From the IMG/VR virus record IMGVR_UViG_2648501839_000008: DNA of 64,000 nucleotides; one strand, given 5' to 3'. Each line of letters starts with the position of its first letter. Position 1 is the first letter of the stretch. Below the pieces are notes generated by a model. The model saw only the letters and a list, made by a program, of their open reading frames with translations, had not been told where the DNA came from and searched no databases. The stretch comes from a virus (lineage: Duplodnaviria; Heunggongvirae; Uroviricota; Caudoviricetes). A program made the position numbers and the translations under genes. Shown piece by piece: positions 15,291 through 64,000 of the stretch.

Positions 15291-15306
15291 TAAACAAATT
15301 GTTTTC
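15291..15306. promoter_or_regulatory. O2 palindromic operator (AAACAA-N-TTGTTT) upstream of helicase gene
   Basis: aaacaaattgttttct read directly; member of dispersed motif family. Confidence 0.45.
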
Positions 15307-15315
15307 TAGTATTAG

Positions 15316-16065
15316 TTAATTAGATAGGGGATCAATAAACCGCCGTGCTTCTTCCAGTTCTTCTGGAAAGTGGGCGGAAATAAGGCGCTCTGGAACGATT
15401 TCCATTAGCCAGATAGCGGAGAAAATTGCGCGTATGCGCTTGCTGCGGGGGATGGCGCGTAAACGCTCCAGAATCCACTCAAAATAGCTTTCCTGAATCG
15501 GGTTGAACTGCATGTCTCCCATATGCTTAAAGCTAACCAGAGAGTCATCCAGACGGGTTGTTGCGCGTCTGGCTAATTTCTCTTCAAATATCTCAATCAG
15601 TTCTGGCTGCCACAAATGCTGTGGGCGAGGCAGCTTGTCCCACAAACGTCGTGCAGCTGCGGAAAGCACGGTGGAGATAAAGTAGTCGTATGAGCAACAA
15701 TAGCGGTCAGCAAACTGGCGTGCTTTCCATAGCGACGTTTTATTGGCAGTCGACAACTCCTGATAAGGCAGGCGTTTTAACCCGGTGGTGAACGGAGCTG
15801 TTTCAAAGTGTTCGCGACCGTGCGTCAGCATGATATTTGAGTACTGACGTTTGTATGCCTCCGTAAACAGACAGGTGGCCATAAGAGGATGCATGTCGCG
15901 GTAATCAAACCACTTCGTATCGAAGAGTTCAGCCTCGTCTTTGCAGCGCGACAAACCAATGTTTTCAGCAACCCACTTATCCATAACAGCGGTATTCCAC
16001 TCTGTCATGAAGTCGTACTGGTCGTTGTCGATGGTGTCGAAAAAGATTTGGCTCATGTGGCTCAC
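15316..16065 (-). CDS. Hypothetical protein
   Basis: 249-aa ORF; no diagnostic motif. Confidence 0.45.
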   Translation of the reverse strand: MSHMSQIFFDTIDNDQYDFMTEWNTAVMDKWVAENIGLSRCKDEAELFDTKWFDYRDMHPLMATCLFTEAYKRQYSNIMLTHGREHFETAPFTTGLKRLPYQELSTANKTSLWKARQFADRYCCSYDYFISTVLSAAARRLWDKLPRPQHLWQPELIEIFEEKLARRATTRLDDSLVSFKHMGDMQFNPIQESYFEWILERLRAIPRSKRIRAIFSAIWLMEIVPERLISAHFPEELEEARRFIDPLSN

Positions 16066-16171
16066 CTGGTAGGTAGTTACTTACTTATCACAATGAGCTG
16101 ATGATAGCGATTGGTGGCAGTTTTTGGAAGTGGAAACGGAAGGGAGTTGTTCTGGTGGGTATCTTTTGAAA

Positions 16172-16230
16172 GACCTGCTTCCGTATATTTAATAAGTTAC
16201 TTATTATTTATATATATACAGAAACAGGTC
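16172..16230. repeat. 58-bp nested-palindrome element, copy 1 (arms CCTGCTTCCGTATAT, palindromic core TAATAAGTTACTTATTA)
   Basis: Near-identical to 49782-49839 in the same orientation. Confidence 0.6.
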
Positions 16231-16238
16231 ATGAATAC

Positions 16239-61379: not shown

Positions 61380-62300
61380 TCTGTCTCAACCTCTCTATAG
61401 GCGTTAATGCTCACTCCTTCCAGAATGTTCTATACGGCGACTATTTCTGTTGGTGAATTGGGTGTGTTGTTTTCTCTGTCGGTGTATGTGGTTTCGTTCG
61501 TTTTGCGGTGGTTCTTCTATGGGGTGTTCTCGTCGTTTTGGTGATTGTTCTTCTCCATGTATGGAGTAATGGCAGGTGGGCGAATCCTTTCGTTATTGTG
61601 TTTGAGTTGTTTGTCTGGAGTGTGTGAAGGGCTTTTGTAGTTATTCGTGTATTGGGTAATGGCGTTTCCCGTGATTGTTATGTTTCGTGTCTTTTGGGAT
61701 TGAGAGAATCCTTGCGGTTACAGGCTTCGTTGGGTTTTCAGTGATTCTGGTGTTTCTTCGCTGTTTGGGGAATGGCGTGTCGTGGGTATCGCGCGTATGA
61801 ATGTTTTCGGATTGCCTGTGAAAGTTAGGTTGGCTGTCCGGTAGCCTGGGGAGAAGAGGTGGGTCTTTTCGGTAGCCTGCCATAAAGAGGTTGGTTGTTT
61901 TGGGGAATGGCATGTGTGTTATTTAGTTGTTTTGTTATAGCTGAAAATAAGTTGTTTATATAGTTATGTAACGCAATGGGAGTGATTTTGAGCGTGTGTT
62001 TTTTCTTGGTAGTGTGTTGGGTCGTCTGTGGTGAAAATTGGACGCTGTGGCGCTGTCTGCTGCGTAGAATTACGGGTATAAGAAGTGATGTGTGAATACG
62101 TCAATTTTTTAGACCAAATCGGGTGAAAGCGTTGACGTTTCGTTGATCTGTTATTTAGTTGTTTTCTTATTGGTATAAACAACGTTAACCTATTGATATT
62201 TAAAGGTGTGATTGCAGGTATGGAAGAAGAGTAGTGGCGATCAACGGATTCTTATAGAAAAGAATCAAATTGTGACCGCCATTATCAACTGATTGATTAA
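61380..62300. other. ORF-free, strongly GT-skewed region with imperfect repeats
   Basis: No ORF of 60 aa or more on either strand; repeated GGGTAATGGCG-like and GGTAGCCTGGGGAGAAGAGGTGGG-like units. Confidence 0.4.
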
Positions 62301-62311
62301 GCTAATTACAC

Positions 62312-63541
62312 TCAAACATCCCCGTTCTTAATCCACTGCCTGACTTGCTCGTCTTGTGCGACTTCTTTCTCATGTTTGGCAATATACAAGTCTGGCAATA
62401 GGGGTGGAGCGAATTCAGGCTCTGTCGCACGCCACTTTTCATATGCGTCACGCATGGATTTCTCAACATTCCAATGCTCCAACTCTTGGTATTCAATCGG
62501 CCAGTTATCCTGCAATCTCTTCACTGCATTAGCCAGGTCGTATCGGAAGTAAGGATTAAGACCAATGAAATTACCAGCCAGCATGTCATCAACCTCCTTC
62601 ACTCTGGCAATCTTAGAAAACTTACCAATAGCAATGTTGAGGTCCCAATCTGACACGAACAACAAAAGTGCTGCAAATGCCAGAAACTTAGCTTCCCCGT
62701 ATGCTCTGTCGCTAACCGTTTTTGTCTGAAACTCAATGTAATTGCCCATCACAAAACTAGTAAGCTTACAGGTATTACTTATCTCGTCCTCCAAATGCGA
62801 TGGATCGAGAATTGTGCGGTCACGATTATTGTTTATGTGTTCTAAGATTACAGCAATGTCTCTATGTGAGACTGAAATTTCACGCAATTGCTGGAGAGTC
62901 TTGATGTGAACTCTTAGCACCTCTTTGTCAATCGCACGCTTCCAAGAAAAACCAGGCACAGTAACCTGAATGGGCGCGAAAGGTAGAATATCAGGAGTTG
63001 TCCATGCTAGATATGCATCACGTAACCCACTAATATAATAAAGCCAGTCTAAATGCTCGCTTTCTAACCATATTTCAAATGTGGAATCCTTTCGCTTATT
63101 GAAGAACCATTCCCTCATCTGCCACATTTTTTCTTGAGTAAATATCCCTTCCTGTATGCCGGCACAGACCAGCTTTCGTATTACCTGCGAATACTTTGTT
63201 CGATCTTTTGTGAATGAGACAAGGTGCTGCTTCACCTCAGATGTTAGTCTATCTCCATAGAAATCACATGATGGATGATGGCCTTGACCATCTTCACCGG
63301 TAAATCTGAAATGCGCCTTCTTGTGATAGCCACCATTCCTAGTGGCTCTAACGAACGAACCACCTCCAACTTTGCAAATGGGGCAGATGATATCGTCACG
63401 GGCAATAGCATGAACCGAGCTGTCATCTAAATTCTTTAGCGCCAAGTACTGCTCAGGATCGACTTCTTTTTGTAACGATTTTGAAAAAGCGGTATCAGTC
63501 ATTCCAAGCTCCGAGCAAGGGGTTATTTGTTCAATTATCAT
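62312..63541 (-). CDS. Hypothetical protein with Cys/His zinc-binding-like motif
   Basis: 409-aa ORF; CPICKVGGGSF...HKKAHFRF...HHPSCDFY. Confidence 0.5.
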   Translation of the reverse strand: MIIEQITPCSELGMTDTAFSKSLQKEVDPEQYLALKNLDDSSVHAIARDDIICPICKVGGGSFVRATRNGGYHKKAHFRFTGEDGQGHHPSCDFYGDRLTSEVKQHLVSFTKDRTKYSQVIRKLVCAGIQEGIFTQEKMWQMREWFFNKRKDSTFEIWLESEHLDWLYYISGLRDAYLAWTTPDILPFAPIQVTVPGFSWKRAIDKEVLRVHIKTLQQLREISVSHRDIAVILEHINNNRDRTILDPSHLEDEISNTCKLTSFVMGNYIEFQTKTVSDRAYGEAKFLAFAALLLFVSDWDLNIAIGKFSKIARVKEVDDMLAGNFIGLNPYFRYDLANAVKRLQDNWPIEYQELEHWNVEKSMRDAYEKWRATEPEFAPPLLPDLYIAKHEKEVAQDEQVRQWIKNGDV

Positions 63542-63672
63542 TCGGAATTATTTACTGTCTCGCCCAGTTTCACGTCATTTTATTCCCTAGTCTAGCTTTT
63601 CTAGGGTATACAGCTTATTACAAGCTCCTCATTATTAACTGTTTCCGTAACTCATTGATCCGCTTATACACT

Positions 63673-63981
63673 CTACCAACACCAGCACTCAAGCCCTTCA
63701 ACGATCGGCGCACCACAATCAAAATGTACAGAGTCAAAGCCTACATCAAGTACTTTCTGAATGTTAGCAATCGCGCCTTCGGATATACCATATCGACGCA
63801 AGTCGTCTTTCCAGACATCATCCTGTAACCCGGCGTGGACAATACAACCGCCATCAATTTGTGAAACCCAATCCAGCTCATTGCTTGCGATCATGAATCG
63901 GCGAGCATCTTCCTCTGATGTATGAGATGAACTGATCAATGCCACCTGGTAGGCTTGGGTAATGTTCAACATTTCAACCAC
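63673..63981 (-). CDS. Hypothetical protein
   Basis: 102-aa ORF; O2 operator at 63985-64000 upstream. Confidence 0.4.
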   Translation of the reverse strand: MVEMLNITQAYQVALISSSHTSEEDARRFMIASNELDWVSQIDGGCIVHAGLQDDVWKDDLRRYGISEGAIANIQKVLDVGFDSVHFDCGAPIVEGLECWCW

Positions 63982-64000
63982 TCCGAAACAATTTGTTTTC

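What the first reader, a model, noticed from the sequence alone, without database searches (positions are those of the whole stretch)
15291..64000. Dispersed palindromic operator family O2 (AAACAA-N-TTGTTT) upstream of at least eight operons
A 13-bp palindrome followed by TCT occurs just upstream of the starts of functionally different minus-strand operons: helicase (15291), parA (19047), terminase (49705 and 49731), four small-gene promoters (58848, 59332, 60286, 60770) and the last gene (63985). Three of the small-gene copies also share a downstream TTAATTATCG box, so those promoters are paralogous. This looks like the regulon of one dimeric repressor, comparable to the dispersed C1 operators of P1. 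The cognate protein is unidentified; the HTH protein at 3005-3391 and the winged-helix protein at 49864-50130 are candidates.
Basis: seen in the sequence. Interest (0 to 1): 0.6.

Follow-up and report, generated by a model that had tools for sequence, protein, structure and literature searches.

The report
Promoter-phased palindromic operator family O2
A 13-base palindrome sits at a fixed distance behind about twenty promoters of this SSU5-type phage-plasmid and most likely lets one element-encoded repressor keep those operons off in the plasmid state, though which protein reads it is unresolved.

Summary
AAACAA-N-TTGTTT occurs 5 times exactly (0.02 expected) and 12 times with at most 1 mismatch (0.52 expected) in the window, always between genes. 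The window is an E. coli SSU5-type phage-plasmid. Complete relatives (Cyrano, SSU5, a Klebsiella lineage with 52% median protein identity, pMT1) carry 6-20 copies at orthologous promoters. The motif lies exactly 13 nt after the last T of a -10 hexamer (55/62 sites), about +4 to +20. Some promoters have a second inverted copy 51 bp upstream over the -35. The distance to start codons varies from 11 to 69 nt, both arms are equally conserved, and no stable RNA hairpin forms. In published Cyrano lysogen RNA-seq the genes behind the sites are silent, except the parA operon. Best reading: the DNA operator of a global repressor (about 0.55). The winged-helix protein is disfavoured. The HTH pairs better with a second dispersed palindrome (TAAGTAnnTACTTA) that co-varies with its recognition helix. 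The ParG/omega-like protein after parA is the leading DNA-binding candidate. A tandem Hfq-fold FljA homologue acting on the transcribed copy is a serious rival. This is a new member of a known kind (P1 C1, RK2 KorB, pSM19035 omega regulons).

The parts
15291..15307 (-). O2 copy AGAAAACAATTTGTTTA, 20 nt before the ATG of the DnaB-like helicase gene (13931-15271)
   Evidence: 28.4 bits; orthologous copies in Cyrano, SSU5 and the Klebsiella lineage
19047..19063 (-). O2 copy AGAAAACAAGTTGTTTC, 35 nt before the parA ATG (18344-19012)
   Evidence: 26.7 bits. With the -10 region it is the only block conserved upstream of parA across lineages (alignment A2)
49707..49723 (-). O2 copy AGTAAACAAGTTGTTTT, terS-proximal
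   Evidence: 23.5 bits; conserved in Cyrano, SSU5, pMT1 and the Klebsiella lineage
49732..49748 (-). O2 copy AGAAAACAAGTTGGTTA, terS-distal, 25 bp from the proximal copy
   Evidence: 26.4 bits
49687..49706 (-). GC-rich hairpin AGAGCGCATGGACGCGCTCT followed by GTGTGTTTT, between the O2 pair and the terS SD; terminator-like leader element
   Evidence: read directly from the sequence; conserved in Cyrano and SSU5; not tested further
58848..58864 (-). O2 copy AGAAAACAATTTGTTAT before the 160-aa gene (58346-58828), preceded by CGATAAT
   Evidence: 23.0 bits
59333..59349 (-). O2 copy AGAAAACAACATGTTTA before the 95-aa gene (59033-59320), preceded by TGCGATAAT
   Evidence: 25.2 bits
59382..59398 (+). 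Inverted upstream O2 copy (AGAAAACAAATTGTTAT on the + strand), 51 bp from the 59334 copy; it lies over the -35 region just after the terminator hairpin of the upstream gene
   Evidence: 23.3 bits; the same 51-bp pair occurs in Cyrano (93114/93165), SSU5 (88319/88370) and the Klebsiella lineage (84853/84904)
60287..60303 (-). O2 copy AGAAAACAAGTTGTTTA (best match), 11 nt before the ATG of the 102-aa gene (59965-60273)
   Evidence: 29.3 bits
60771..60787 (-). O2 copy AGAAAACATGTTGTTTA, 12 nt before the ATG of the 107-aa gene (60430-60753), preceded by TGCGATAAT
   Evidence: 24.5 bits
61942..61958 (+). O2 copy (TGAAAATAAGTTGTTTA on the + strand) upstream of the 90-aa gene (61641-61913)
   Evidence: 22.0 bits
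63986..64000 (-). O2 copy (G)AAAACAAATTGTTT, cut by the window end, 13 nt before the ATG of the DUF5983 gene (63673-63957)
   Evidence: the full site plus an upstream inverted partner is seen in Cyrano at 93165/93114
2459..2477 (.). Weaker O2 copy (AAACAAATTATTT) before the cobT-like gene (334-2442); the SSU5 orthologue is a perfect site
   Evidence: 21.5 / 18.5 bits on the two strands
17985..18344 (-). 119-aa protein after type-Ib parA with a basic disordered tail plus a beta-alpha-alpha pattern (IKSRTMSLEDE...FTRSDVIRAAI). Putative ParG/omega-like centromere-binding protein and the leading DNA-binding candidate reader of O2
   Evidence: motif invariant across lineages; expressed in the lysogen; the RHH fold is NOT confirmed
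55468..55980 (+). FljA-family (Pfam Flag1_repress) protein made of two tandem Hfq/Sm-like domains, encoded on the opposite strand. Rival reader, acting on the transcribed copy of O2
3005..3391 (+). XRE-type HTH protein next to the integrase. Probable lysogeny repressor, but better matched to the other palindrome family (O1)
49864..50130 (-). 88-aa winged-helix protein; disfavoured as the O2 reader
   Evidence: silent in the lysogen; recognition helix conserved in O2-less Acinetobacter and Pectobacterium relatives

Best explanation
O2 is a DNA operator. It is a symmetric 13-bp palindrome, AAACAA-N-TTGTTT, built into one of the two promoter classes of SSU5-type phage-plasmids. The motif starts exactly 13 nt after the last T of the -10 hexamer, so it covers about +4 to +20 (centre about +12) from the predicted start point. 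About a quarter of the promoters carry a second, inverted copy 51 bp upstream, over the -35 region. A symmetric dimer (or pair of dimers) encoded by the element binds these sites and blocks RNA polymerase binding or escape. This keeps about 20 operons off, or throttled, while the element lives as a plasmid. These include the replicative helicase, nrdB, the terminase/late operon, many small early genes and, more weakly, parA. Shown: the motif, its excess over chance, its intergenic position, its phasing with the -10, its conservation at orthologous promoters down to 52% median protein identity, and the silence of downstream genes in a lysogen. Inferred: that it acts as DNA, that it represses, and who reads it. 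My leading DNA-binding reader (about 0.25-0.3) is the ParG/omega-like protein encoded after parA. That would make this a partition-protein-as-global-regulator system like pSM19035 omega or RK2 KorB.
For: Excess over chance. Intergenic location: 11 of 12 copies at 87.6% coding. Whole-genome counts of 18, 20 and 20 at orthologous promoters in Cyrano, SSU5 and a Klebsiella lineage whose flanks have diverged; 6 intact sites in pMT1. De novo palindrome enumeration ranks it first in Cyrano and in the Klebsiella element. Phasing: T at -14 in 29/29 forward sites and in 55/62 sites of four genomes, while the distance to the start codon ranges from 11 to 69 nt. The two arms carry mirror-symmetric information content. 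Inverted copies lie over the -35 with a fixed 51-bp spacing in four genomes. No stable RNA hairpin forms (-0.7 kcal/mol), the leaders share no common fold, and there is no Rfam match. Lysogen RNA-seq of Cyrano (PMC9928086, S1 Table): genes behind the sites score 5-25 against a median of 9.8; the parA operon scores 50-89. For the ParG/omega-like reader: it is expressed in the lysogen at 89. O2 plus the -10 region is the only conserved block in the parA promoter, and no other repeats lie nearby. Its presumed DNA-reading strand and helix are invariant across lineages at 49% overall identity. It occurs in 801 plasmids.
Against: No binding data exist. The simple sigma-70 scanner does not call these promoters, so the start point is inferred only from conserved -10-like hexamers; no TSS data were available. 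Against the ParG/omega-like reader: its RHH fold could not be confirmed (pLDDT 63, no fold or profile hits). A Pectobacterium relative keeps the protein with the same beta-strand motif but has no full O2 sites, only AAGAAAACAA half-sites at some promoters including parA. pMT1 lost the protein yet keeps O2, though that loss is too recent to be informative. parA is 5-10 times less repressed than the other O2 operons. Most copies lie in the transcribed leader right before the SD, as in the known FljA/fliC system, and an FljA homologue is encoded here.
Confidence: 0.55

Rival explanations
1. RNA-level control. The FljA-family tandem Hfq-fold protein (55468-55980) binds the transcribed copy of O2 (AGAAAACAAnUUGUUUA) at the 5' end of the leaders. 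It blocks ribosome access and destabilises or attenuates the mRNA, as Salmonella FljA does on the fliC leader.
Against: An RNA site has no need for exact reverse-complement symmetry with equally conserved arms. The motif is phased with the -10, not with the SD. Inverted copies lie upstream of promoters, after terminators. The protein is among the fastest-evolving in the element (33% identity against a 52% median) while O2 is invariant. The O2-less lineages carry other Hfq-like proteins, so the phyletic contrast is soft. The fliC match is only 8 of 12 positions and E. coli fliC matches poorly. RNA levels, not only protein, are at background in the lysogen.
Confidence: 0.25
2. One reading: the XRE-type HTH protein next to the integrase (3005-3391) is the master lysogeny repressor and reads O2 as a dimer.
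For: It is expressed in the lysogen at 96. It is present with the integrase in 865 plasmids of all host genera, and is missing only from the lytic isolate SSU5, which keeps the sites. Its recognition helix is identical in three O2-bearing lineages at 48-65% overall identity, and is altered in both O2-less lineages.
Against: There is no O2 copy in its own divergent control region. A second dispersed family (TAAGTAnnTACTTA, 10-20 per genome, in promoter spacers) exists in every O2-bearing lineage. It is replaced by TAGGTAT..ATACCTA in Pectobacterium and by AGTCAGTACTGACT in Acinetobacter, in step with the helix changes, and the Acinetobacter version also occurs in the HTH-cro intergenic region. 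A universal HTH matched to a universal O1-type family is the simpler pairing, and one helix cannot read both sequences. Half-site centres only 7 bp apart are unusual for HTH dimers (general knowledge).
Confidence: 0.1
3. There is no dedicated reader. O2 is an intrinsic part of a promoter/leader class (initial transcribed sequence, translation enhancer) that spread by promoter duplication, or it is read by a host protein.
For: The promoters are clearly paralogous (shared TGCGATAAT...AAGA context). The A-rich arm AAGAAAACAA occurs alone after -10 elements in the Klebsiella lineage and in Pectobacterium. The motif is the same in elements from five or more host genera.
Against: The TTGTTT arm is as conserved as the A-rich arm and keeps exact dyad symmetry at non-paralogous promoters (parA, dnaB, terS, nrdB) whose flanks have diverged. 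Inverted copies over the -35 are not leaders. Near-consensus -10 promoters that are silent in the lysogen need a repressor. I know of no enterobacterial factor with this consensus (memory only, not tested).
Confidence: 0.08

Closest known systems
pSM19035 omega (RHH) and TP228 ParG: type-Ib partition proteins that also repress promoters
   Same: A small protein is encoded directly after a type-Ib ParA. The site lies in the parA promoter. Short 6-7-bp units sit in inverted orientation about 7 bp apart. For omega, one protein controls replication, partition and other operons.
   Different: Here single palindromes are spread over about 20 promoters of a 108-kb phage-plasmid, including the terminase operon, rather than arrays of 7-10 heptads at three promoters. 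The RHH fold and binding are unproven here.
RK2/IncP KorB-OB (and KorA-OA) global regulons
   Different: KorB is a ParB-family HTH protein. The two ParB-like genes here are silent in the lysogen and their operon has no O2. The O2 position is fixed at about +12 or -38, whereas OB sites act at variable distances.
Phage-plasmid P1 C1 repressor and its dispersed operators
   Same: A phage-plasmid in which one operator type is scattered over the genome in front of many operons, including a DnaB-type helicase (ban in P1), and silences them in the prophage state.
   Different: P1 operators are asymmetric 17-mers read by C1 (general knowledge). No C1 homologue was found among the candidates. SSU5-type elements have two complementary operator families (O1 and O2).
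Salmonella FljA acting on the fliC 5'-UTR
   Same: A homologous protein (Pfam Flag1_repress) is encoded here. The target lies in a short leader just upstream of the SD, and the fliC leader shares the core CAAGTTGT.
   Different: FljA has one known target. O2 is a perfect DNA palindrome phased with the -10 and also occurs upstream of promoters. Identity to true FljA is only 38-40%.

Membership tests
Dispersed operator regulon of a plasmid or phage-plasmid global repressor (generic kind: P1 C1, RK2 KorA/KorB, pSM19035 omega) | Many copies of one short sequence, far above chance, located at promoters of different operons | tested here: met
Dispersed operator regulon of a plasmid or phage-plasmid global repressor (generic kind: P1 C1, RK2 KorA/KorB, pSM19035 omega) | Downstream genes are repressed in the maintenance (lysogenic/plasmid) state | tested here: met
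   Published Cyrano lysogen RNA-seq: 5-25 against a median of 9.8; parA operon 50-89. This is correlation only.
Dispersed operator regulon of a plasmid or phage-plasmid global repressor (generic kind: P1 C1, RK2 KorA/KorB, pSM19035 omega) | An identified cognate DNA-binding protein that binds the sites | not testable with these tools
   Only comparative inference was possible.
P1 C1 / C1-operator system | Asymmetric 17-bp operator and a C1-family repressor | tested here: not met
   O2 is a symmetric 13-mer. No candidate matched a C1-like family. The P1 consensus is from memory.
   The ParB-like genes (51689-53037) are at background in the lysogen, and their promoter region has no O2.
omega/ParG-type RHH partition-regulators | Ribbon-helix-helix protein encoded after a type-Ib (short, Walker-type) ParA | tested here: inconclusive
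   ParA is a 222-aa MipZ/ParA type. The following protein shows a beta-alpha-alpha sequence pattern and a weak aCcr1 hit (E 2e-4, below cut-off). The model has pLDDT 63 and gave no fold or profile hits.
omega/ParG-type RHH partition-regulators | Binding repeats in the parA promoter region | tested here: met
   O2 is the only conserved non-promoter element upstream of parA, and there are no other repeats. That the protein binds it is not shown.
FljA-type post-transcriptional repression | Flag1_repress family protein | tested here: met
   (E 2.5e-84, full length); tandem Hfq fold
FljA-type post-transcriptional repression | The target lies in the 5'-UTR next to the SD and is coupled to the ribosome-binding site | tested here: inconclusive
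   Most copies are in predicted leaders, and 15 of 44 abut the SD. However, the spacing to the start codon is 11-69 nt while the spacing to the -10 is fixed, and some copies lie upstream of promoters.
Structured cis-regulatory leader RNA | Stable, conserved RNA secondary structure or a match to a described family | tested here: not met
   -0.7 kcal/mol for the motif, z-scores near 0 for the leaders; no Rfam hit

The most novel reading that the evidence does not exclude
O2 is the target of the tandem-Hfq-fold FljA homologue. An Sm-type protein would then act as the global silencer of a phage-plasmid's lytic and early genes, working on nascent leaders (and perhaps on single-stranded or duplex DNA at the same sites). 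The flagellar phase-variation repressor FljA would be a domesticated relative of this phage-plasmid regulator.
Probability: 0.25. Interest if true: 0.8.

Novelty: new member of a known kind. Interest (0 to 1): 0.55.

Why it matters
SSU5-type phage-plasmids are common: about 800 complete plasmids in PLSDB come from E. coli, Klebsiella, Salmonella (pHCM2), Enterobacter and Yersinia pestis (pMT1). Some carry resistance genes. I found no published account of how they hold their lytic genes silent or switch them on. This work defines one of two promoter-operator classes, gives its exact geometry and regulon, and cuts the list of possible readers from "any regulator" to two or three testable proteins. 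If it is the FljA homologue, this would be a new role for an Hfq-fold protein and a likely origin for flagellar FljA.

Tried and rejected
1. Excluding the HTH because SSU5 lacks it. I withdrew this: the module is universal in plasmid-state elements, so SSU5 may simply be a repressor-deleted lytic derivative.
2. Co-occurrence among the 12 SSU5-like phage records. All candidates are present in them, so this has no power.
3. Motif-first scan of viral contigs. Every multi-site locus belongs to the SSU5 group; the single hits elsewhere are chance.
4. Looking for RHH homologues in unrelated replicons to test for O2 upstream of their parA. I found only SSU5-type contexts and one IS-truncated remnant.
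5. pMT1 as a natural RHH deletion. It keeps O2, but it is too close to SSU5 for unconstrained sites to have decayed.
6. RNA hairpin explanation: rejected.
7. Known RNA family: none.
8. Sigma-28 promoter reading of GCGATAA: the -35 TAAA is absent at the required spacing (sequence inspection).
9. Simple sigma-70 scan: it does not call the site-associated promoters.
10. E. coli K-12 fliC leader: only a loose resemblance.
11. Confirming the RHH fold by AlphaFold, Foldseek and a PDB profile search: all failed.
12. The primary FljA papers and a 2026 preprint on an SSU5-type element were not retrievable.
13. Host transcription-factor consensus sequences recalled from memory (IHF, KdgR, PurR, Fur, FNR, LexA and others): none fits. 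This was not tested computationally.
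Full report
WHAT THE WINDOW IS. The terminase region is 98-99% identical to E. coli SSU5-type phage-plasmids (CMS-2020a, PhiR41_1, Cyrano/pLF82) and 80-88% identical to Klebsiella relatives and Salmonella phage SSU5. Most genes are on the minus strand.

AAACAANTTGTTT occurs 5 times exactly (0.02 expected) and 12 times with at most 1 mismatch (0.52 expected); no shuffle reaches either count. 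A 17-nt weight matrix trained on two other genomes gives 18 hits of at least 16 bits in the window, against none in shuffles. With an approximate gene map (87.6% coding), 11 of 12 copies are intergenic, and the twelfth overlaps only an over-extended ORF call. Three copies were missed (2462, 59385, 61945). In gene orientation the site reads AGAAAACAA-N-TTGTTTA and lies just upstream of the Shine-Dalgarno sequence.

CONSERVATION. Complete relatives carry the same motif at orthologous promoters: 18 copies in Cyrano, 20 in SSU5, and 20 in a Klebsiella plasmid lineage whose proteins are only 52% identical on median. Yersinia pestis pMT1, which keeps part of the backbone, has 6. The promoters involved are those of terS (two copies), parA, the DnaB-type helicase, nrdB, a tciA-like gene, a cobT-like gene and many small genes. 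Upstream of parA, the only block conserved across lineages is TTTAGGCTATA...ATAAGAAAACAnnTTGTTT. A blind enumeration of palindromes ranks this motif first in Cyrano and in the Klebsiella element. A motif-first scan of viral contigs found multi-copy loci only in this phage-plasmid group.

GEOMETRY. I aligned 29 forward sites from Cyrano and SSU5. A T is invariant 14 nt upstream of the motif and is the last base of -10-like hexamers (TGCGATAAT, TGAGATAAT, GGGAAAAT and similar). AGA precedes the motif in 26-28 of the 29. The two arms have mirror-symmetric information content. Across four genomes the T at -14 holds in 55 of 62 sites, whereas the distance from the motif to the start codon ranges from 11 to 69 nt (median 19). 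The motif is therefore phased with the promoter, not with the ribosome-binding site, and covers about +4 to +20 from the predicted start. About a quarter of the promoters have a second, inverted copy (AAACAAnTTGTTTTCTGCC) just after the upstream gene's terminator hairpin and over the -35 region. Its start-to-start spacing from the downstream copy is 51 bp in the window (59385/59334), Cyrano, SSU5 and the Klebsiella lineage. In the Klebsiella lineage the upstream position often has the only complete palindrome, and the leader keeps just AGAAAACAA. One caveat: the simple sigma-70 scanner does not call these promoters, because the -35 is weak and many have TGn extended -10 elements. No TSS data were available.

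DNA OR RNA. The motif alone folds at only -0.7 kcal/mol. Four leaders fold differently from one another, with z-scores near zero. Rfam finds only three tRNAs in the window. Exact dyad symmetry, equal conservation of the arms, fixed phasing with the -10 and copies upstream of promoters all argue for duplex DNA read by a symmetric protein.

EXPRESSION. In published RNA-seq of an LF82 lysogen of Cyrano (PMC9928086, S1 Table), the genes directly behind the sites are at background. Values are terS 7.1, helicase 21, nrdB 12.9 and small genes 5-25, against a median of 9.8. The exception is the parA operon (50-89). Regulators expressed in the lysogen are the HTH (96), the post-ParA protein (89), a 92-aa protein (114) and the FljA-like protein (18 in overnight LB, log2 7-8 in the other conditions). 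The winged-helix protein is silent (7.8).

WHO READS IT. I examined four candidates.

(a) Winged-helix protein, 49864-50130. It is silent in lysogens. It is highly conserved (78% in the Klebsiella lineage), and its recognition helix (TKQ..QFSIR.LIK) is also conserved in Acinetobacter and Pectobacterium relatives that have no O2. It is disfavoured.

(b) HTH, 3005-3391. It is absent from SSU5. However, it is present with the integrase in 865 plasmids, so SSU5 is probably a repressor-deleted lytic derivative. Its recognition helix is invariant across O2-bearing lineages. Against it, its own control region has no O2. There is also a second dispersed family, TAAGTAnnTACTTA ('O1'), with 10-20 copies per genome in promoter spacers. 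O1 marks a set of operons complementary to the O2 set, including sites inside the late operon. O1 is replaced by TAGGTAT..ATACCTA in Pectobacterium and by AGTCAGTACTGACT (about 27 copies) in Acinetobacter, in step with changes in the HTH helix. In Acinetobacter, degenerate copies also lie in the HTH-cro intergenic region. The simplest pairing is HTH with O1.

(c) The 119-aa protein after the type-Ib parA, 17985-18344. It has a basic disordered tail and a beta-alpha-alpha pattern whose core (IKSRTMS.EDE...FTRSDVIRAAI) is invariant at 49% overall identity. It is expressed in lysogens. The only conserved candidate site in its own promoter is O2. Short inverted units 7 bp apart resemble omega-type sites. 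Weaknesses: the RHH fold is unconfirmed, and Pectobacterium keeps the protein but has only AAGAAAACAA half-sites.

(d) FljA-family protein, 55468-55980. It gives a full-length Pfam Flag1_repress match (E 2.5e-84). The model shows two tandem Hfq-like domains and no DNA-binding domain. FljA-type proteins block fliC mRNA translation, and the verified fliC leader shares CAAGTTGT upstream of its SD. Apart from the O2-regulated small genes themselves, it is the only lysogen-expressed gene sharing O2's phyletic distribution. Weaknesses: it evolves fast (33% identity), the O2-less lineages have other Hfq-like proteins, and the geometry arguments above point to DNA.

VERDICT. O2 is a real, conserved, promoter-phased operator-like element that defines a regulon of about 20 operons. 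I put about 0.55 on a DNA operator for an element-encoded repressor. Within that, the post-ParA protein gets about 0.25-0.3 overall, another or unknown protein about 0.15-0.2, the HTH about 0.1, and the winged-helix protein less than 0.05. RNA-level control by the FljA homologue gets about 0.25. An intrinsic promoter element or a host factor gets about 0.08. By kind, this is a new member of the family of dispersed-operator regulons (P1 C1, RK2 KorB, pSM19035 omega). I found no published description in the literature searches.

Noticed in passing
window 302, 7982, 16070, 27351/27355, 34268, 40766, 46257/46261, 59883 (13-14-mers); Cyrano, SSU5, Klebsiella lineage and pMT1 likewise: A second dispersed palindrome family, (GA)TAAGTAnnTACTTA(TC), with 10-20 copies per genome. 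It sits in promoter spacers or over the -10, including inside the late structural operon, and marks a set of operons complementary to the O2 set. It is probably the true operator of the HTH repressor.
   Followed up: partly
L215-L217 (Acinetobacter plasmid NZ_CP156934.1) and L218-L220 (Pectobacterium plasmid NZ_KP942676.1): These are distant members of the same backbone without O2. Acinetobacter has about 27 promoter-associated copies of AGTCAGTACTGACT, and Pectobacterium has about 6 copies of GTAGGTAT..ATACCTAC. Both changes coincide with changes in the HTH recognition helix, which makes a usable covariation series.
   Followed up: partly
window 55468-55980 and homologues: The FljA-like gene is hypervariable. 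It is 65-100% identical among elements whose terminase regions are 98-99% identical, and 33% identical in the Klebsiella lineage. That pattern is typical of immunity or arms-race loci.
   Followed up: partly
window 49687-49706: A GC-rich hairpin plus a U-rich tail lies between the O2 pair and terS, conserved in Cyrano and SSU5. It looks like a leader terminator, which suggests the late operon also needs antitermination.
   Followed up: no
window 54692-54708 and 55930-55946 (+ strand): Weak O2-like matches (about 16 bits) lie inside the oppositely transcribed UvsW / 92-aa / FljA-like operon, one at the start of the 92-aa gene and one 37 nt before the gene after the FljA-like gene. They may reflect feedback on that operon.
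   Followed up: no
window 16239-17942: A 567-aa ORF sits in a low-GC island (GC 0.32 against about 0.46) between the par operon and the helicase region. It has no counterpart in Cyrano or SSU5 and is probably an accessory or defence insertion.
   Followed up: no
window 17985-18344 / Cyrano CYRAN_29: This gene is annotated 'RelE/ParE putative toxin' in the Cyrano record. Its position after type-Ib ParA and its sequence pattern suggest a ParG/omega-like centromere-binding protein instead.
   Followed up: partly
L210 (Klebsiella plasmid NZ_CP056375.1), record position 73707: One perfect O2 copy lies inside an operon, at the 3' end of the DHFR gene and directly before the next gene's SD. It has no -10 element upstream and no AGA flank.
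   Followed up: no
window 6985-7228 (- strand): Three tRNA genes lie in a row (Rfam; Asn/Thr/Ser in the Cyrano annotation).
   Followed up: no
L213-L214 (Yersinia pestis pMT1): pMT1 keeps the HTH/integrase, winged-helix and FljA-like genes and six intact O2 sites, but it has replaced the type-Ib par module with a P1-type ParAB.
   Followed up: yes
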